Source of the DNA: a virus
DNA: 64,000 nucleotides
Direction: 5' to 3' (one strand)
IMG/VR virus record: IMGVR_UViG_3300035703_000070
Location: 6,315-70,314 of that record
The translations under genes were made by a program, and so were the position numbers. Positions within the stretch are counted from its first letter, which is position 1. Every line of letters begins with the position of its first letter. The notes beneath the pieces were generated by a model. That model was not told the DNA's origin, ran no database searches, and saw nothing but the letters and a program-made list of their open reading frames with translations. Shown here one piece after another: positions 51,790 to 60,161 of this stretch.

Positions 51790-52281
51790 ATGCCCACTCC
51801 CATTGAATTTGTCTTCTCCGAAGAGGAAAGGAAGCAGGCGATGGAGGAAGGACAAAGGCGACAGTCGGTAAACGCCGCAAAGGCGCTAAGGGGAAGGAAT
51901 GGGGGTGCGTCCTTTGGGGCCAAAGCCTTGGACATTCACCTTCTGGGCGCCGCCGGCGAGATGGCTGTAGCTTCGTACCTTGAAATGAAAGATTTTTTGT
52001 TTCAAGAACAGGAGGCCCGTCGTGGATCATGCGACCTGCCAGGTATTGACGTTAAAACCAGGAGCAAGCACTGCTACGATCTCATCGTGCAAAAACGAGA
52101 GTCTCCAAGTAAAAAATTTGTCCTTGTGACCATTGAGGCTGGAAAAACTTTGATTCATGGCTGGTGCTACGGGCATGAGGCCATGAAGGAAGAATACTGG
52201 GCCGACCCGGCTAGAGGAAGGCCCGCCTATTTCGTCCCCAAAGAAAAACTTCGCAATATTACATCGCTGACGCATGAGTGA
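51790..52281 (+). CDS. PD-(D/E)XK-like hypothetical protein
   Basis: GA.GE.AVA, D...IDVKT, GW, YFVP. Confidence 0.65.
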   Translation: MPTPIEFVFSEEERKQAMEEGQRRQSVNAAKALRGRNGGASFGAKALDIHLLGAAGEMAVASYLEMKDFLFQEQEARRGSCDLPGIDVKTRSKHCYDLIVQKRESPSKKFVLVTIEAGKTLIHGWCYGHEAMKEEYWADPARGRPAYFVPKEKLRNITSLTHE

Positions 52282-52891
52282 AAATCAGCAATTTTACGTT
52301 TACGCATATTTGCGCAGCCAAGATTCTTTTTGTGGCCTCAAGTGGAGTCCTTATTATATTGGCAAGGGCCACAAAGGGCGAGCCTTTAAACATCACGGAC
52401 GGAGATGTCCAGCTCCGAGGGACAAGAGCTACATTGTTTTTGTTCAGGAAGGGTTAACTGAGCAAGAAGCGCTGAAACTGGAGCAATATTGCATTGCTCT
52501 TTACGGAAGGATCGATATTGGAACCGGTATTCTGCATAATTTAACCGATGGAGGAGAGGGAGCATCTGGCATGAAACACGGAGAACAAGCGAAACAAAAA
52601 GTGTCGCAAGCCAGGCGCGGCAAGAGATTGTCCATGGAGCATAGGCTAAAATTATCGCAATCACACAATGGCAAGACATTGTCGCGTGATCACAAATTAA
52701 ATATTGGACGAAAAAGTTTAAGACATCTTTACGAGTTTATTGATTTAAGCGGCGAAGTGTATATCACGGAAAATGCTAGTGACTTTTGCCGCCAGCATGG
52801 ATTAGATGATGGCTCCATGTCAAAAGTTATTCATGGAAAAAGAAATTGCCACAAAGGCTGGACTGGACGCATCGTCGAAACATTGCAATGA
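52274..52891 (+). CDS. GIY-YIG/NUMOD3 homing endonuclease
   Basis: FYVYAYLR...PYYIGKG...R, L.NLTDGGEG.SG, NUMOD3-like repeats, HKGW. Confidence 0.85.
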   Translation: MSENQQFYVYAYLRSQDSFCGLKWSPYYIGKGHKGRAFKHHGRRCPAPRDKSYIVFVQEGLTEQEALKLEQYCIALYGRIDIGTGILHNLTDGGEGASGMKHGEQAKQKVSQARRGKRLSMEHRLKLSQSHNGKTLSRDHKLNIGRKSLRHLYEFIDLSGEVYITENASDFCRQHGLDDGSMSKVIHGKRNCHKGWTGRIVETLQ

Positions 52892-55181: not shown

Positions 55182-55283
55182 ATGAACAAGCTCATGCTTG
55201 TGAAGCTGCAGCTCCTGAAGGCCGCAAGGCTTCATCAGGCGCAGTTGGCTTCAGTCTACGGCTACCGCCCTTGCGTGGCCTGA
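55182..55283 (+). CDS. riboswitch-controlled peptide (DUF4278-like, 33 aa)
   Basis: MNKLMLVKLQLLKAARLHQAQLASVYGYRPCVA. Confidence 0.65.
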   Translation: MNKLMLVKLQLLKAARLHQAQLASVYGYRPCVA

Positions 55284-55286
55284 AAG

Positions 55287-55505
55287 CTACATGGGCTCGC
55301 TACGGCGAGCCTTTTCTTCTTGGTGGTGAATGTAAGTTTTCAGTTCGTGCAAATAAGAGCGAAGCATGGCAGCCTTTTCTAGATGCCAAGGGTCACGATG
55401 GAGAAAGTAAAGCTCCATGTGATTATCAATGGCCTTTAAGCAATTGTGAATGGGCGCATTCCAGCGCGAACGGATCGGGGTGTTAAACGTCCGACGATCG
55501 TCCAT
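55287..55505 (-). CDS. hypothetical protein
   Basis: 72-aa ORF. Confidence 0.65.
   Translation of the reverse strand: MDDRRTFNTPIRSRWNAPIHNCLKAIDNHMELYFLHRDPWHLEKAAMLRSYLHELKTYIHHQEEKARRSEPM
55294..55315 (+). terminator. Rho-independent terminator
   Basis: GGCTCGC-TACG-GCGAGCC-TTTT. Confidence 0.75.
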
Positions 55506-56043
55506 TGGCTTTGAAATAAGCCTTGATGTCTTCTAATGCTACTGGCTCAAAGTTATTCCTCTCCAGGCAGGCATTGAAATAGCGCCTATCCACTTGCCCA
55601 TCTTCTGTATGAACAAGATGGCAATGGAGATGGCCGTGAACATTGCCTCGATAATGACCGACAATATTTTTAGGGTGGACAGGGATGTGCGTGAAGATGA
55701 GACCACCAAGCATGGTGCTATCACCATGGTGGAAATATGCCCCGCGAATGTCGTCGAAATATTGAAAATAGAGCTTAGCCGGAAGGCGATCGTGGTTTCC
55801 AGCAATCAATACTTTCCTTCCATTGAAGCCCTTCAAAAGCCTTAAGGCAGTGTTAGAGAATGCCACGTCACCAAGAACATACACATTGTCTTTCTGGTGG
55901 ACTTTCTTGTTCCAGCGCTCTTGAATTATTTCGTGCATTTCCTCAATAGAGGAAAAGGGCCGCATTGCCGAACCATCTGGCGCGTCAAACTCCAGAATCC
56001 TGGAATGACCCATATGAAGATCTGCCGTAACAAATGCTGTCAT
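55483..56043 (-). CDS. calcineurin-like metallophosphoesterase
   Basis: DLH.GH, LGD, GNHD, THIP, HGHLH. Confidence 0.9.
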
Positions 56044-56624
56044 TTTGCTTCTTGATTGATTGGAGTGCGTGTTGCTGTCCAGCCTTGACAGTGAGGCCTT
56101 TCCCCCCTGGAGACAGCCCTGATGTTAGCGCTTTCCACCGATGGATGCTGGGTGCAAAATTCAGAAACAGTCAAACCAGTGATGACTTCGCCGCTTGGCC
56201 CATAAAAGGTGTACTCATATTTTTTTCTTATTTGTCGGTAATGTTCTTTGGTTTTTTCTGAATGCTTACTTCCGCGTGGCCAAGGATCCTGCCTGTAGCG
56301 AGCAGCCCTAATTCTTTCAATCACCTCCGGGGAGAATCCTGAGCTACCTTCCCCGCCTTGTGTCAGGTTTCTTAGTAAACCAGTACCAATGTCTTTGCGG
56401 CCCAATACCGCAATCATGTAGCGTTCGTGCTTAAACGCTTCTTTTTCGGTTAGGTCTTTTTTGAGGATCAGGATTCGACTGGGATCACTGGGTTTGTTTA
56501 CGGCGCATCTTGAATGCGAAACCCATGCGCGATAGCCACGACCTTTGCCGATGTAATACGGTGTTCCGTCTTGCCTCATGTACGCATAGGTGTAAAAATC
56601 TGCCTTCTGTCCCATCGAGACCAT
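56040..56624 (-). CDS. GIY-YIG-like homing endonuclease
   Basis: [17 protein letters not shown]...[17 protein letters not shown]. Confidence 0.85.
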
Positions 56625-56643
56625 GACACTAATCTTGGCCTCT

Positions 56644-56691
56644 TTATTCTATAGCCCCAAGGTGCAGGTCTGAGGTGACAAAAGCGCTCAT
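56644..56691 (-). pseudogene. relic 5' end of the metallophosphoesterase gene
   Basis: ATG AGC GCT TTT GTC ACC TCA GAC CTG CAC CTT GGG = MSAFVTSDLHLG versus the functional [12 protein letters not shown]. Confidence 0.8.
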
Positions 56692-56696
56692 GATGA

Positions 56697-56897
56697 TCAG
56701 TGCTTTTCGTAAACCACTTTTCTTTGCACGGGATCAGGACGATCTTCCAGCTCATGCAAAAGATCAAGAGCCTGATCAAATGTGCTAAACCAGCCCCTCT
56801 CGTCCCAGATAAAAGGACAAATGCGCTCTTGTACTTCGTAGAGGGGCTCCCATGGACGCACGGCGCTTGGACGTTGAACAATGCGAAATCGCGCCAC
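56697..56897 (-). CDS. hypothetical protein
   Basis: 66-aa ORF, GTG start. Confidence 0.6.
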   Translation of the reverse strand: MARFRIVQRPSAVRPWEPLYEVQERICPFIWDERGWFSTFDQALDLLHELEDRPDPVQRKVVYEKH

Positions 56898-56944
56898 AGC
56901 AAAACTTAGAAGGCAAGCCTCAGTTTAGTACGGTTCGGAAGAAA

Positions 56945-57014
56945 GGGCTCCTCCAGGAATCGAACCCGGCATTCCAGGCTATCGGCCTGACGTGTAAGCC
57001 TACACTAAGGAGCA
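56945..57014 (-). tRNA. tRNA-Ile(GAT)-like, atypical
   Basis: TGCTCCT TA GTGT-AGGCTT-ACAC G TCAGG-CCGATAG-CCTGG AATG CCGGG-TTCGATT-CCTGG AGGAGCC; C33, short D-loop, 1:72 mismatch. Confidence 0.65.
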
Positions 57015-57016
57015 AG

Positions 57017-57132
57017 TGACCCCCAAGTTTGAGCATCGTTGAGAGGCTTAGGGAGTGTTAAACGATGGAGCAAGCGTGAGGGTCATCCGGGATTGGCTCC
57101 CAGTGACGCACAGAGGCTTGCCCTCCGTCGCT
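57017..57132 (-). ncRNA. candidate structured RNA (two hairpins) upstream of the tRNA
   Basis: Long imperfect hairpin CGACGGAG/GCAAGC/GTCA/CTGGGA with partners, then CCCTAAG/CTTGGGG hairpin; TGCTATAGT -10-like element upstream. Confidence 0.5.
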
Positions 57133-57145
57133 TGACACTATAGCA

Positions 57146-57838
57146 CTAAGCGCGACCGTAGGAAGGCAGACTAGTGTTGCGCTTGGGCTTGTCACGCCCA
57201 AGGAGTTCGCCATTGAGGCGCTCCGCCATGTCCCAAAGCGGCTCCGTGGTCAATTCATCCCATCCTTTACCCCCGTATTTAGCACTGCTAATAGTAGAAG
57301 GCTTTACGCCCCATGCTTCAGCCAATTGAGTGCGCAAGCCACGCAAATGCCGCATGTCTTTGGGAAGTCGCAACAACACCCTGACCTGGGCTTCGTTGAG
57401 CAGTGGGTCGCCAATTTTTTTGCGTGGACGCTTGGATCTGCCGTCAATGTACGCGGGCCAATACCCAAGATTACGTTTCATGTCGGCGGCATTTTCCTTG
57501 AGACTGCCCCATCTAAGGTTTTCTGGCACATTATTGGTGTGAACGTCGTCGTAGTGCAAAACGTTTTCCTTCCCTTCTGGAGGAAGTCCATGGAAAGCAA
57601 GGCACACAAGGCGAGCCACAAGAATTCTTTTCAGTTCTCCATTTTTAGACAGCATCACAGACATTCGCCCATGGCTCTTGCTGATATTAAACCGAAGGAT
57701 TTTCTCTTTGAACACGCGAGTGCGCTCTTTGTTGTTCTTAGTATCCTTGACAACGCGTTGAACACTTTTGATGCGTCCAAGACTTGAAGCTGCGTAATGG
57801 GTTTCGTAACCAGGAATGGGTTTCCAAATTTCTTCCAT
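57146..57838 (-). CDS. NUMOD4-HNH homing endonuclease fused to the relic NrdB C-terminus
   Basis: EIWKPIPGYE..YAASSLGRIKS, VARLV..AFHG, H.DD...NN...NL.W; ends NTSLPSYGRA. Confidence 0.88.
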   Translation of the reverse strand: MEEIWKPIPGYETHYAASSLGRIKSVQRVVKDTKNNKERTRVFKEKILRFNISKSHGRMSVMLSKNGELKRILVARLVCLAFHGLPPEGKENVLHYDDVHTNNVPENLRWGSLKENAADMKRNLGYWPAYIDGRSKRPRKKIGDPLLNEAQVRVLLRLPKDMRHLRGLRTQLAEAWGVKPSTISSAKYGGKGWDELTTEPLWDMAERLNGELLGRDKPKRNTSLPSYGRA

Positions 57839-57904
57839 GAAAAAGGCGGAGAACAAGAACCCCGCCAGTTTAGCATGGATAAGCTGGAAGATTGCAGGTG
57901 GTCT

Positions 57905-58639
57905 CTAAGAATACATAGGCAGTGAAGTATTCGGACTTTCAAAAAAAGCAGGGCATCGACTGCTGCGCGTAGCAGCCATTTCGGGAGCCTTGCCAGTCCA
58001 GAATAAAGAGCGAGATTGACGCAGCCAGAAATCTTTGTTCAGCCATTGATTGGACGAAGCGCCGAGATCATCAAAAAGCCAGGCAACAGTGGCGGCCCGA
58101 AGCTTGTCAAGACTTTGGCTTTCCTTTTCCCCTAGTTCCTTGCTCACCATGGCATTGACCACGGTATGAACCCTTTCATCCCTCGAAATATCTTGCGAGA
58201 CAGTGCGCATGCCCACGTCACCCGTCTGCCTGAAAAACGGAAGCGCCACGAAAAAAACGGAGCGTTCCATAACGCCTGCCTTGAGAATGGGATGAGCAGG
58301 GTGCTCGTTCCAGGCTTTTAAAATGCTCATCACTTCACGCTCTGACTTTGTGTCAGTGCCGTGGGCATCGGCCACGTAGTTCAAAGCCTCCAAGTGGCGG
58401 TCTTCATCGTCCTGGTTAGAACGAAGAGTCTCGATAAGGCCAGGGGTGGAGGGCAGTTCACGCTTCATGCCCTCCTCAAGAAGCTCCTTTACGGGAATTT
58501 CAAGGTGGCGCAATGCCAAAGCCTTAAGCAAAGTGCTTTCAGCGCCCTCTGTCACCTGTCCTTTTGCCACTTGCACAGGCGTCCATGCACGCTTTTTGGC
58601 AAGGACATTCAAATAGGGACTCTGCTGGGAGGTGATCAT
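57905..58639 (-). CDS. nrdB: ribonucleotide reductase beta subunit (cyanophage type, ferritin-like)
   Basis: DE.RH and DE.VH diiron motifs, ERSVFFV.LP.FR; adjacent to nrdA. Confidence 0.8.
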   Translation of the reverse strand: MITSQQSPYLNVLAKKRAWTPVQVAKGQVTEGAESTLLKALALRHLEIPVKELLEEGMKRELPSTPGLIETLRSNQDDEDRHLEALNYVADAHGTDTKSEREVMSILKAWNEHPAHPILKAGVMERSVFFVALPFFRQTGDVGMRTVSQDISRDERVHTVVNAMVSKELGEKESQSLDKLRAATVAWLFDDLGASSNQWLNKDFWLRQSRSLFWTGKAPEMAATRSSRCPAFFESPNTSLPMYS

Positions 58640-58712
58640 ATTCAGGAAAGCGATGGAAAAGAATGAAAAAGGGGAAGAAACTCCCCCTTTGCGAAGAACT
58701 ATGGAGAGAAAA

Positions 58713-60161
58713 TTATTCAGCGCAGCTAGAGCAGAAGCCTGCATCCAAACTGCAAGTAACAACCTCTCCGGAAGGCTCGCTATCTTCGAGTCCAAATATG
58801 CTCTTGAAATCGTCATCAAGAGCGGCGTAAGCATCGTCCTTTCTTTGCATGTCAGACATGACCTGCAAGGAATAGTACATGCTCGTCTGAGGAGAGTCTA
58901 GCCAATCTTGAAGGAACTCTCGATCGTAAGTAACCAAATCTCCCCATGTGTTCATGGAGTAACCGTGAAAAAGGCCAGTGGCTTGGTACAAGCGCACGAG
59001 TTCGTTGACGACAAGAACGTAAGTGTTCCAGCCAACTTGTTCCGCAATTTCCACTTCCCCATAGTCAAAACTTTCCACGCCAAAGGTGCCAGAGTCCCTA
59101 TCAACAAGCCGTCCAATGGGAGGGGCAATTTCAGGGGCAGTGGTGAAACCTTTCTTGTCGAGATAGCGATAGGAGCAGGAAGCAGTGGGGGCAATACAGA
59201 AGGCACGGTGCATGCCGTGCTCGCGGGCAATCTTTGCTGCAGCTTCAATGCCGTCACGAATGGCTGCTGCGGCCCTCCCGGCAGGCCTCTCTCCCCAATA
59301 GTGGCACCATGGATGGGGATCATCGTCATTCAGCGCTTGCAGCGCCTTGCCGAAGTCTTCGTAAGAAATACCATGGAGGGAAAGGAAATTGGCAAGACCA
59401 AGCATGCCAAGCCCCACTTGCTTGTCAATAGAAGGGGAAAGGTATTCGCCAGTCTCGCCAACACCAGTATTTGGATGGAGCTCACACAGTTGCTTCATGC
59501 CCTCCGCAAAAGCTTCTTCTACTTCGTCGATGTCACAAGCACCCATGTTGACGTGCTGCAAAAGGCAAGTGCCACGATGAGGAAGATAAACTTCAAGGCA
59601 GACATTGGCGCGAATGCGATTTCCTTCTTGATCGTACCGAATCTTGTTCAGCCAAATGTCGCCGGAGGCAATGCCCTTTAGCAGCTCATCAATCAGTTCT
59701 TGAGAAGAGTTTTCAATAAACCGCTCATCCACGTTCACACACCTTTTCACCCATGGAAGCTCTTGGCGGGAGGCCTTGATGAAATCAAGAATGTCAGGGT
59801 GTGTATAGTCAAGATGAAGCACTACGGCCCCATTCTTATATCGTCCACCCCTACGGAGAATTTCATTGAGAGTGGAATAAATCTTGCCAAAACTAATAGG
59901 ACCACTTGCGACAAGGCCCTTGCCGTTTTCATCGCCTTTTCCGCGCAGTTCCGACAAATGCACTGCCACACCTGCGCCATTACGCAAACCATGAGAGACG
60001 AAGCGCCACGACGCTTCGATGCCATTTTCCCCCTCCATTGAATCATCTACTACAAAGACCGTGCAGCTTACGGCAAGGCGGCCTTCTGGATCATCCAACC
60101 AACTCTGCACACGCCCTGTACGGGCAATTTTTTCGCACTTCGCCTGTTCCTTGAGCTCCAT
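58713..60161 (-). CDS. nrdA: ribonucleotide reductase alpha subunit (cyanophage type)
   Basis: SC.V, NVCLE, C.L.HVN, GLG.LG, APTAS, C-terminal CSSC. Confidence 0.9.
   Translation of the reverse strand: MELKEQAKCEKIARTGRVQSWLDDPEGRLAVSCTVFVVDDSMEGENGIEASWRFVSHGLRNGAGVAVHLSELRGKGDENGKGLVASGPISFGKIYSTLNEILRRGGRYKNGAVVLHLDYTHPDILDFIKASRQELPWVKRCVNVDERFIENSSQELIDELLKGIASGDIWLNKIRYDQEGNRIRANVCLEVYLPHRGTCLLQHVNMGACDIDEVEEAFAEGMKQLCELHPNTGVGETGEYLSPSIDKQVGLGMLGLANFLSLHGISYEDFGKALQALNDDDPHPWCHYWGERPAGRAAAAIRDGIEAAAKIAREHGMHRAFCIAPTASCSYRYLDKKGFTTAPEIAPPIGRLVDRDSGTFGVESFDYGEVEIAEQVGWNTYVLVVNELVRLYQATGLFHGYSMNTWGDLVTYDREFLQDWLDSPQTSMYYSLQVMSDMQRKDDAYAALDDDFKSIFGLEDSEPSGEVVTCSLDAGFCSSCAE

What the first reader, a model, noticed from the sequence alone, without database searches (positions are those of the whole stretch)
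55483..56691. Homing endonuclease inserted in a phosphoesterase 5' end, supplying a recoded replacement N-terminus
Seen: at the natural operon position (5 nt after the upstream stop) is a 12-codon stub MSAFVTSDLHLG (56656-56691) that breaks off at the DxHxGH metal motif. A -10-like TAGAAT and a GIY-YIG gene follow, and the nuclease stop overlaps a fresh start [13 protein letters not shown].... The two copies share 9/12 aa but only 24/36 nt, and 9 of 12 third positions differ. Inference: the element cuts within this conserved motif, inserts there, and carries a diverged, cleavage-immune copy of the displaced gene start. The host gene is restored without any intron or intein.
Basis: partly seen in the sequence, partly recalled or inferred. 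Interest (0 to 1): 0.85.

Follow-up and report, generated by a model that had tools for sequence, protein, structure and literature searches.

The report
Homing nuclease carrying a spare gene start
A selfish nuclease gene sits inside the first dozen codons of a cyanophage phosphoesterase gene and keeps that gene whole by bringing its own diverged copy of the displaced gene start, the mirror image of a trick described for gene ends in fungal mitochondria.

Summary
On the minus strand, a 66-codon ORF is followed after 5 nt by a 12-codon stub. Then come a 32-nt leader, a 194-aa GIY-YIG-like nuclease gene, and an ATGA overlap into a complete 186-aa metallophosphoesterase gene.

Fourteen close relatives lack the nuclease. 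In 8 of them the same ORF and 5-nt spacer precede a stub-like start that runs straight into the gene.

A separate metagenome contig (L025) carries the same cassette: 9 differences in 660 nt. It lies in a different background whose near-identical relative L005 is an empty site. L025 also keeps a stub, of its own background's type. The near-identical segment spans the leader, the nuclease gene and about 43 nt of replacement gene start.

The "recoded" start is largely a natural allele: its Ala-7 state occurs in all 6 relatives without the upstream ORF and in none of the 8 with it. The cleavage site and the immunity of the copy remain untested.

The neighbouring HNH gene does the mirror thing at the nrdB 3' end. 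Other members of this nuclease family also show flanking duplications.

Closest known: fungal mitochondrial mobile-ORF gene hybrids. I rate this a new variant of a known kind.

The parts
56697..56897 (-). 66-codon ORF of unknown function upstream of the target gene. It marks the resident genome background and is the inferred left homology arm.
   Evidence: ORF list. No Pfam, PHROG or NCBIfam family. It is 98-100% aa identical to L014-L016 and present in 8 of 14 relatives.
56644..56691 (-). Stub ORF. It holds 12 resident codons of the phosphoesterase start (56656-56691; native sequence ends at about 56657), then 3 codons and a TAA supplied by the cassette.
   Evidence: It matches relatives' gene starts at 31-33/36 with the same 5-nt spacer. 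L025 has its own background's version, which reads MSAFVTSDLHLGL*.
56625..56656 (-). Cassette leader, with stop codons in two frames (TAG, TAA) and an AGAGG 14 nt before the nuclease ATG.
   Evidence: It differs from L025 at one base (56630). The TAGAAT hexamer is not called as a promoter.
56040..56624 (-). Free-standing homing-endonuclease-like gene (194 aa): an N-terminal GIY-YIG-like domain and a C-terminal I-HmuI/NUMOD-like DNA-binding domain.
   Evidence: phrog_15526 at 9.9e-24 and phrog_314 'homing endonuclease' at 6e-08. Invariant Y11 Y13 Y23 Y24 I25 G26 R32 E67 N86 in 23 homologues. PDB profile match to I-HmuI 1u3e at E 8.1e-06. Foldseek: 1u3e at E 1.6e-04, and UvrC GIY-YIG 1yd6 at E 0.29, TMt 0.52.
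56008..56043 (-). Replacement 5' end of the phosphoesterase gene (12 codons, [12 protein letters not shown]). Its ATG overlaps the nuclease TGA (ATGA).
   Evidence: 24/36 to the stub, 23-24/36 to relatives that carry the upstream ORF, 30/36 to L004.
56001..56660 (-). Segment nearly identical between the window and L025 (9 differences in 660 nt). This is the inferred mobile unit: leader, nuclease gene and about 43 nt of gene start.
   Evidence: One search lists the difference positions. The flanks diverge sharply on both sides.
55483..56043 (-). Complete metallophosphoesterase gene (186 aa), the host gene that is kept whole.
   Evidence: phrog_547 'phosphoesterase' at 1.5e-43 over residues 1-181. 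TIGR04123 PdeM at 5.8e-06, below its cut-off. 44.6% identical to the annotated phosphoesterase of S-CBS4. 70-92% aa identical to 14 relatives over residues 1-186.

Best explanation
A free-standing GIY-YIG-like homing endonuclease gene moves as a roughly 650-nt cassette: a 32-nt leader, the nuclease ORF, and 36-43 nt of replacement gene start. The cassette occupies codon 12 of a cyanosiphovirus metallophosphoesterase gene, inside the codons for the first metal-binding motif (D-x-H).

The resident first 12 codons are pushed upstream and remain as a dead stub that the cassette's own stop codons close. The cassette's diverged copy of those codons, started by an ATG that overlaps the nuclease stop, rebuilds a full-length gene. 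No intron or intein is needed.

Shown here:
- the anatomy;
- the empty sites in relatives;
- the same cassette in two different genome backgrounds, each with a stub of its own background's type.

Inferred:
- The nuclease cuts nuclease-free alleles at or near codon 12, and the cassette is copied in by double-strand-break repair. The stub plus upstream ORF serve as the left homology arm and the gene body as the right.
- The arrangement first arose by one-sided repair. The donor had the nuclease gene just upstream of an Ala-7-type phosphoesterase allele and lacked the 66-codon ORF. The right end was therefore repaired by homology, and the left end was joined without homology at the break, stranding the resident start.
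- The divergence of the copy protects it from cleavage and from repeat-mediated loss.
For: 1. Empty sites. All 14 close relatives (70-92% aa) lack the nuclease at this site. In 8 of the 14, the 66-codon ORF, a 5-nt spacer and a stub-like start run straight into the gene.

2. Filled/empty pair, L025 versus L005: upstream 153/158, stub 34/36, copy 25/36, downstream 204/216.

3. Discrete mobile unit. The window and L025 differ at 9 of 660 nt between 56660 and 56001. The upstream ORF differs at about half its positions, and the gene body at about 1 in 5.

4. Each stub is of its own background's type. The window's is 32-33/36 to L016 and L013; L025's is 34/36 to L005.

5. The nuclease gene is intact in both copies, with 5 synonymous and 2 non-synonymous differences, and keeps the family's invariant residues.

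6. There is a recombination break at the cassette. The window's upstream ORF is 198/206 to L016, but the gene body is 374/528 to L016 against 450/525 to L003.

7. Donor class. The copy's Ala-7 state occurs in 6 of 6 relatives lacking the upstream ORF and 0 of 8 having it. Nt 16-42 are identical to L004.

8. In public runs, nuclease-free contigs join across the site (X2 record 3, X3 record 10, X4 record 16). Contigs holding the nuclease gene occur in the same runs (X2 record 6; X3 records 11-13; X4 record 18).

9. The same logic recurs. The HNH gene at the nrdB 3' end behaves this way. So do other members of this nuclease family: 11 of 81 copies score above the 99th percentile of mismatched controls for flanking duplication.
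Against: - No cleavage data exist, and free-standing phage nucleases can cut at a distance from their genes. The SegG paper title, seen in a reference list, says so.
- The copy-type allele exists in nuclease-free genomes (L004 and, in part, 5 others). Its divergence therefore needs no selection for immunity.
- Only two full filled sites were read, the window and L025. No stub-less ancestral arrangement was found.
- The two stubs differ by a 1-nt indel 5 nt from the junction. That could mean decay of the stub or independent joining.
- The window's gene body has no near-identical donor in the collections (best DNA identity 75-94% per 60-nt bin). A long co-conversion tract cannot be told from ordinary mosaicism.
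- Pfam's GIY-YIG model is not matched, and the fold match of the N-terminal domain is weak.
Confidence: 0.8

Rival explanations
1. The arrangement is a one-off recombination scar carried passively. A single illegitimate recombination once joined a nuclease-plus-phosphoesterase block from one phage lineage into codon 12 of another. The block has since spread only through ordinary phage mosaicism. The nuclease is inert, or it targets some other site, and the divergence of the copy is just lineage divergence.
For: The copy is largely a natural allele: L004 matches at 30/36, with nt 16-42 identical. These phages are highly mosaic throughout. No cleavage data exist. Only two filled sites were read in full.
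Against: Both ends of the near-identical segment coincide with the insertion boundaries, within about 5 nt on the left and 7-14 nt on the right, in two backgrounds whose flanks are 50% and 80-85% alike. Ordinary recombination would not be expected to stop at both edges. Each stub is of its own background's type. The nuclease ORF is intact with mostly synonymous change. The same design recurs with unrelated nucleases and genes.
Confidence: 0.12
2. The duplication is an assembly artefact: a chimeric metagenome assembly joined two strain variants of the gene start.
For: The window comes from a metagenome-derived virus record. Nuclease-free relatives coexist in the same kinds of samples.
Against: L025, a contig from another collection, shows the same stub, leader, nuclease gene and copy in a different background. 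Low-depth contigs of three further runs hold the nuclease gene at 94-99+% identity, reaching 18-30 letters into the stub (X2 record 6, X3 record 13).
Confidence: 0.03
3. The stub is a first exon or extein. The nuclease gene lies in an intron or intein, or a recoding event joins the stub to the gene body.
For: Stub codon 12 is followed, in relatives, by exactly the sequence that follows the copy's codon 12. A splice would therefore be in frame.
Against: No group I or II intron, or any other RNA family, is found in 55200-56944 at E up to 1. The nuclease is a separate ORF that begins after stops in two frames. The downstream ORF is full length from its own ATG, aligned with relatives from residue 1.
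Confidence: 0.02
4. The stub has been put to use as a leader that controls nuclease expression. This reading is compatible with the best explanation. Translation of the short stub ORF, or a hairpin between stub RNA and the nuclease start region, would time nuclease translation.
For: The predicted hairpin pairs stub nt 5-36 with the nuclease start region in the window (-33.3 kcal/mol, z -2.0, 8 of 200 shuffles as good). It also forms in L025 (-30 kcal/mol, z -1.5, 15 of 200). The stub keeps the gene's native start context.
Against: The z-scores are weak. With only two sequences there is no covariation test. The stub sequence is inherited from the target, so the complementarity may be chance.
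Confidence: 0.15

Closest known systems
Mobile-ORF (mORF) gene hybrids of fungal mitochondria: atp6 of Allomyces macrogynus; atp6, atp9, cox2 and nad3 of a Glomus species
   Same: An endonuclease ORF travels with a diverged, foreign copy of a gene terminus that replaces the native one. The native terminus stays beside it as a remnant that matches close relatives (passages of PMC3630166; C-terminal duplications of atp6 and cob next to GIY-YIG/LAGLIDADG ORFs in PMC6279837). The test used there, native piece close to relatives and inserted piece diverged, gives the same result here: 31-34/36 against 23-25/36.
   Different: The mitochondrial cases replace the C-terminus, often with the endonuclease ORF in phase with the gene, and occur in organelles. 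This case replaces the N-terminus, including the start codon, in a phage. The nuclease is a separate ORF upstream of the rebuilt gene and is coupled to it by an ATGA overlap. The window's HNH/nrdB cassette is the true C-terminal counterpart.
Free-standing homing endonucleases of T-even phages and 'intronless homing' (SegF, SegG, MobE)
   Same: The nuclease gene is free-standing and sporadically present between conserved genes. It has a GIY-YIG-type nuclease with a modular DNA-binding tail, and flanking markers are exchanged at the site. The family is described in passages of PMC10448857. The SegF and SegG papers were seen only as reference-list entries; their content is recalled.
   Different: As I recall them, those genes lie between genes and leave no duplicated piece of the target. 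Here the insertion point is inside a coding sequence, and the cassette carries the displaced codons.
Genes split by nuclease insertion: nrdA of Aeromonas phage Aeh1 (recalled; cited in PMC8351571) and 'fractured genes' with split inteins (PMC2677866; title and start of abstract only)
   Same: A homing nuclease gene sits inside a conserved gene without an intron, and gene function is preserved.
   Different: There the gene is left in two pieces whose products reassemble or are spliced as proteins. Here one uninterrupted gene is rebuilt and the other piece is discarded.
Free-standing nuclease beside cyanophage psbA (F-CphI, 'collaborative homing'; recalled, and mentioned in a passage of PMC10448857)
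   Same: A cyanophage free-standing nuclease lies next to, and is thought to target, a conserved gene. Loci L063 and L065 here show members of this nuclease family just after psbA-like genes.
   Different: Collaborative homing relies on a neighbouring intron to interrupt the target. No intron is present here.

Membership tests
Free-standing homing endonuclease gene (phage type) | Nuclease domain of a homing-endonuclease class (GIY-YIG) | tested here: inconclusive
   Pfam's GIY-YIG model is not matched, even at E up to 10. For: the invariant Y-x-Y, Y-I-G, R32, E67 and N86 in 23 homologues; phrog_314 'homing endonuclease' at 6e-08; weak PDB matches to GIY-YIG proteins (E 0.03; Foldseek 1yd6 at E 0.29, TMt 0.52). 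Equating these residues with the catalytic residues of I-TevI is from recall.
Free-standing homing endonuclease gene (phage type) | Modular DNA-binding tail of the NUMOD / I-HmuI type | tested here: met
   Profile match to the C-terminal part of I-HmuI 1u3e at E 8.1e-06. Foldseek match to 1u3e at E 1.6e-04. Many homologues carry PF07460 or PF22083.
Free-standing homing endonuclease gene (phage type) | Present or absent at one site among close relatives, with empty sites otherwise colinear | tested here: met
   0 of 14 relatives carry it at this site. 8 of the 14 are colinear empty sites. L025 is a second filled site.
Free-standing homing endonuclease gene (phage type) | The same element in different genome backgrounds (evidence of movement) | tested here: met
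   9 differences in 660 nt between the window and L025, against strongly diverged flanks.
Free-standing homing endonuclease gene (phage type) | Site-specific cleavage of the nuclease-free allele and resistance of the nuclease-bearing allele | not testable with these tools
   This needs protein expression and cleavage assays.
Fungal-mitochondrion-type mORF gene hybrid | The endonuclease ORF travels with a diverged duplicate of a gene terminus, and the native terminus remnant matches relatives | tested here: met
   The stub is 31-33/36 to the relatives with the upstream ORF (L006: 28/36), and the copy 23-24/36. For L025: 34/36 against 25/36 to L005. The criterion is taken from passages of PMC3630166.
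Fungal-mitochondrion-type mORF gene hybrid | The replacement concerns the C-terminus, with the inserted piece in phase with the gene | tested here: not met
   Here the N-terminus and start codon are replaced, and the nuclease ORF lies upstream of the rebuilt gene. The neighbouring HNH/nrdB cassette does meet this feature.
Intron- or intein-borne homing endonuclease | The nuclease ORF is embedded in a self-splicing intron or fused in frame as an intein | tested here: not met
   No intron family at E up to 1 in 55200-58000. The nuclease is a separate ORF bounded by stops.
Calcineurin-like metallophosphoesterase (the host gene) | Family profile match and an N-terminal D-x-H metal motif | tested here: met
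   phrog_547 at 1.5e-43. TIGR04123 at 5.8e-06, below its cut-off. PDB 1xm7 at 3e-06. Pfam has no hit. D-L-H lies at residues 8-10 in the window and in all 14 relatives, as D-(L/I)-H. That this is metal motif I is from recall.

The most novel reading that the evidence does not exclude
Terminus replacement may be a general, so far undescribed way for free-standing homing nucleases to colonise the gap-free coding sequence of phage genomes, at both 5' and 3' gene ends.

- The nuclease would cut inside a conserved terminal motif.
- One-sided break repair would copy in the nuclease gene plus the donor's gene end, and sometimes the whole donor gene.
- The resident end would be stranded as a stub or as a tail on the nuclease ORF.

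On this reading, two unrelated nucleases within 2 kb of this genome (GIY-YIG-like at the phosphoesterase 5' end, HNH at the nrdB 3' end) and several other members of the family are instances. Such cassettes would then be a direct driver of allele and gene-end exchange between phage lineages. The stub may also have been recruited to pair with and time the nuclease's own translation start.
Probability: 0.35. Interest if true: 0.8.

Novelty: new variant of a known kind. Interest (0 to 1): 0.62.

Why it matters
Homing nucleases are thought to survive inside genes only when an intron or intein removes them, and otherwise to sit between genes. This cassette shows a third solution in a phage: bring a spare copy of the codons you displace.

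- It explains how a nuclease can target the most conserved, and so most widely shared, part of a gene in a genome with no intergenic space.
- It gives a natural pair of cut-prone and putatively immune alleles that can be tested directly.
- It shows how such elements swap gene ends or whole genes between phage lineages.
- Short stubs like this one, and odd tails on nuclease ORFs, are markers that annotation pipelines could use to find more cases and to avoid miscalling gene starts.

Tried and rejected
- **Promoter.** The sigma-70 scan of 55300-57300 calls no site at the TAGAAT hexamer on the minus strand; 2 sites were found against 2.0 expected.
- **Pfam GIY-YIG.** No match, even at E up to 10.
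- **Named phages.** blastn of 55200-57200 found only 2-4% coverage in 7 records. No close named relative exists; S-CBS4 is the nearest, at 44.6% aa.
- **More copies in the viral collection.** Exact-pattern scans with the copy's start and with the leader each gave 0 hits. The protein scan found no homologue above 53%. The window's own record may be left out of these scans.
- **Independent read support for the left junction.** X2 record 6 reaches 30 letters into the stub and X3 record 13 reaches 18. Both are under the tool's 31-letter rule, so neither is counted as bridging. Stretches without cover, and contig depths, were not used as evidence.
- **Second GIY-YIG-like gene (52274-52891).** It lies exactly between the upstream 207-codon ORF and TerL, with an ATGA overlap at its 3' end into TerL and an 8-nt overlap with the upstream ORF at its 5' end. 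By eye, a few end codons look duplicated (TLQ*). The flanking-duplication score of 31 is below the control threshold of 35, so I do not claim it.
- **RNA hairpin between stub and nuclease start.** The z-scores are only -2.0 and -1.5, so it is kept as a minor rival.
- **tRNA upstream of L004.** My early description of L004's upstream region as tRNA-like was not borne out; ARAGORN finds none there.
- **PMC5626475.** Its duplication passages concern a nad2 repeat that the passages read do not tie to a nuclease.
- **Literature on phage cases.** Searches found no description of a nuclease-borne replacement of a gene end in phages. Subscription journals are not covered.
- **Supplements.** The supplementary figures and tables of PMC3630166, which hold the identity values of the Glomus duplications, were not seen.
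Full report
**Setting.** The window is bases 6315-70314 of a 70.3-kb virus record rated 98% complete. Its nearest named relative is the cyanosiphovirus Synechococcus phage S-CBS4. The phosphoesterases are 44.6% identical, and S-CBS4 has the same gene order: rnr, nrdB, an endonuclease, phosphoesterase and onward to terL.

On the minus strand the window reads as follows:
- nrdA-like gene, 58713-60161;
- nrdB, 57905-58834;
- an HNH/NUMOD4 gene, 57146-57856;
- tRNA-Ile, 56945-57013;
- a 66-codon ORF, 56697-56897;
- the stub;
- the nuclease gene, 56040-56624;
- the phosphoesterase gene, 55483-56043 (phrog_547, 1.5e-43).

- The stub ATG (56691) lies 5 nt after the stop of the 66-codon ORF.
- Twelve codons (MSAFVTSDLHLG) are followed by three more codons and a TAA.
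- The nuclease TGA overlaps the ATG of a full-length phosphoesterase ORF that starts [13 protein letters not shown].
- Stub and copy share 24/36 nt and 9/12 aa. By my count of the codons printed there, 9 of 12 third positions differ.
- In both strands of the window, the stub is the only other 36-mer with at least 24/36 matches to the copy.

A scan of viral contigs gave 14 relatives whose phosphoesterases are 70-92% identical over all 186 residues. None has a nuclease gene at this place.
- Eight of them (L003, L005, L006, L011, L013-L016) have the 66-codon ORF, a 5-nt spacer and a start that matches the stub at 28-33/36. That start runs straight into CAT TCC or CAT/CAC GCC/GCA.
- The other six (L004, L007-L010, L012) lack the 66-codon ORF and carry Ala instead of Ser at codon 7.
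- None keeps a stub.

**A second filled site.** L025 also has a stub, the same leader and the same replacement start. Its background is different:
- Its upstream ORF differs from the window's at about half the positions.
- Its gene body differs from the window's at about one position in five.
- Between window positions 56660 and 56001 there are only 9 differences in 660 nt.

L025's background is that of L005, which is an empty site: upstream 153/158, stub 34/36, copy 25/36, downstream 204/216. The shared segment therefore begins within a few nt of the point where the stub leaves the native sequence. It ends 7-14 nt beyond the 36 duplicated nt. I take this segment to be the mobile unit.

Each stub is of its own background's type. 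The window's is 32-33/36 to L016 and L013, whose upstream ORF is 85-96% identical at the DNA level. L025's is 34/36 to L005. The nuclease ORFs differ by 5 synonymous and 2 non-synonymous changes.

**Public runs.** Parts of 55950-56760 are held by runs from 14 studies. Those labelled by habitat are mostly freshwater or lake metagenomes, and one run may be the source sample. Contigs of four runs from four other studies were laid on 55300-57100.
- Nuclease-free contigs join across the site. X2 record 3 goes from 56660 to 55725 with 286 unlike letters between, which is the length expected for a diverged gene 5' part. X3 record 10 goes from 56657 to 55921. X4 record 16 goes from 56943 to 55921.
- Other contigs of the same runs hold the nuclease gene. 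X2 record 6 covers 55744-56686. X3 records 11-13 have one differing letter each. X4 record 18 also holds it.
The junction's independent support is therefore L025 alone.

**What the nuclease is.**
- Pfam has no match.
- PHROGs gives phrog_15526 (9.9e-24) and phrog_314 'homing endonuclease' (6e-08).
- Of 2643 homologues found, many of those listed carry NUMOD3 or I-HmuI-NUMOD-like domains.
- In an alignment of 23 homologues, Y11, Y13, Y23, Y24, I25, G26, R32, E67 and N86 are invariant. From recall, this is the GIY-YIG residue pattern.
- A profile of that alignment matches the C-terminal DNA-binding part of I-HmuI (E 8.1e-06) and, weakly, GIY-YIG proteins (E 0.03).
- An AlphaFold model (mean pLDDT 79.5) matches I-HmuI (E 1.6e-04). 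Its N-terminal half matches the UvrC GIY-YIG domain only weakly (E 0.29, TMt 0.52).

I call it GIY-YIG-like and treat strict membership as not settled.

**Where the replacement start comes from.** It is not simply a recoded stub.
- Nt 16-42 are identical to the natural allele of L004. Over the first 36 nt the copy matches L004 at 30/36.
- Its Ala-7 codon is the state of 6 of 6 relatives without the 66-codon ORF and 0 of 8 with it.
- Only codon 2 (ACA for AGC) and codon 5 (GTT for GTC) are shared by both cassette copies and found in none of the 14 relatives.

The simplest history is as follows. The nuclease gene once sat directly upstream of an Ala-7-type gene in a genome without the 66-codon ORF. 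It cut a Ser-7-type gene near codon 12. The break was repaired with homology on the gene side only. After that, the stub and upstream ORF can serve as the left homology arm for ordinary homing, which would fit the background-type stub in L025.

In the window the gene body (450/525 to L003, 374/528 to L016) does not go with its upstream ORF (198/206 to L016). That may be a long conversion tract or unrelated mosaicism.

The cleavage position, the immunity of the copy and the repair route are all inferred.

**Other readings.** No intron or other RNA family is found at the site, and the downstream ORF is complete on its own, so splicing is not needed. An assembly artefact is unlikely given L025. 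A predicted hairpin pairs the stub with the nuclease start region in both copies, but only weakly (z -2.0 and -1.5).

**The same design elsewhere in the window.**
- Relatives without the HNH gene (L011, L013) end nrdB with ...NTSLPSYGRA*.
- In the window and in L003, nrdB ends instead with a diverged ...NTSLPMYS* (57905-57931).
- The native 33-nt end, identical to that of L011 and followed by the same downstream sequence, forms the last 11 codons of the HNH ORF (57146-57178).
- L006 keeps the replacement end plus only the last ~30 codons of the HNH ORF.

This is the C-terminal arrangement known from fungal mitochondria.

**A survey of the nuclease family.** I compared the 200 nt before each nuclease start with the region around its stop, in 81 usable copies. 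These came from 80 viral loci plus the window's two copies, L025 and L012. The controls were 600 mismatched locus pairs, with a 99th percentile of 35. Eleven of the 81 exceed that threshold.

I inspected six of the eleven:
- L062, L078 and L063 duplicate the C-terminal codons of the upstream gene, at 44/69, 47/72 and 21/24 nt.
- L083, L065 and L111 have 24-42-nt near-perfect direct repeats flanking the nuclease gene.

Of the remaining five, two are the window's copy and L025, which are the only N-terminal cases. L070, L047 and L107 were not inspected, and L070 looks low-complexity.

**Comparison with what is known.**
- Passages of PMC3630166 describe mitochondrial 'mORF' gene hybrids. An endonuclease ORF comes with an inserted, diverged C-terminus, and the native C-terminus remains downstream and matches close relatives. 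The paper cites the Allomyces atp6 case as the first.
- PMC6279837 reports C-terminal duplications of atp6 and cob among GIY-YIG and LAGLIDADG ORFs.
- Phage literature read here (passages of PMC10448857 and PMC8351571) describes free-standing nucleases between genes, genes split by nucleases, and intron-linked cases.
- Four searches found no phage case of a nuclease-borne replacement gene end, nor an N-terminal case in any system. The library lacks most subscription journals.

**Verdict.** The finding is real and well supported by comparative evidence. I rate it a new variant of a known kind: an N-terminal, phage-borne version of the mitochondrial terminus-replacing endonuclease element. Its C-terminal counterpart lies 1 kb away in the same genome.

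Noticed in passing
window 57146-57931 (-); L003, L006, L011, L013: The HNH/NUMOD4 gene is a mirror-image cassette at the nrdB 3' end. nrdB ends in a diverged replacement (...NTSLPMYS*, 57905-57931). The native 33-nt end (...NTSLPSYGRA*), identical to that of HNH-free L011, forms the last 11 codons of the HNH ORF (57146-57178). L006 keeps the replacement end and only the last ~30 codons of the HNH ORF, which looks like a decayed cassette.
   Followed up: partly
L062, L078, L063, L083, L065, L111 (viral contigs): Other members of the same nuclease family are flanked by duplicates. L062, L078 and L063 duplicate the C-terminal codons of the upstream gene (44/69, 47/72 and 21/24 nt). L083, L065 and L111 have 24-42-nt near-perfect direct repeats. 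L063 and L065 lie just after psbA-like genes.
   Followed up: partly
window 52274-52891 (+): A second GIY-YIG-like gene (39% identical to the first) lies exactly between a 207-codon ORF and terL. Its start overlaps the upstream ORF's end by 8 nt, and its TGA overlaps the terL ATG (ATGA). L012 has a homologue at the same place, and 11 other relatives have an empty site. A few end codons (TLQ*) look duplicated, but this is not significant.
   Followed up: partly
L004 3002-3580: A 53% identical homologue of the nuclease sits immediately after nrdB in L004, the relative whose phosphoesterase start is closest to the cassette's replacement start. The nrdB-phosphoesterase interval appears to be a hotspot for nuclease genes in this phage group.
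   Followed up: no
window 57019-57055 (-): An abiF RNA motif (RF03085, 48.9 bits, E 2.3e-07) lies directly upstream of tRNA-Ile (56945-57013). One search shows DNA similarity of this area to cyanophage S-CREM1, where the feature under the match is annotated abiF.
   Followed up: no
window 56590-56710 (-) and L025 140-259: A predicted RNA hairpin pairs the stub with the nuclease's start codons in both cassette copies (z -2.0 and -1.5). The statistics are weak and it remains unexplained.
   Followed up: partly
window 56661-56662 versus L025: The two stubs differ by a 1-nt indel 5 nt from the junction, so they end in different cassette stop codons (TAA in the window, TAG in L025). This could be decay of a dead fragment or a trace of separate joining events.
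   Followed up: no
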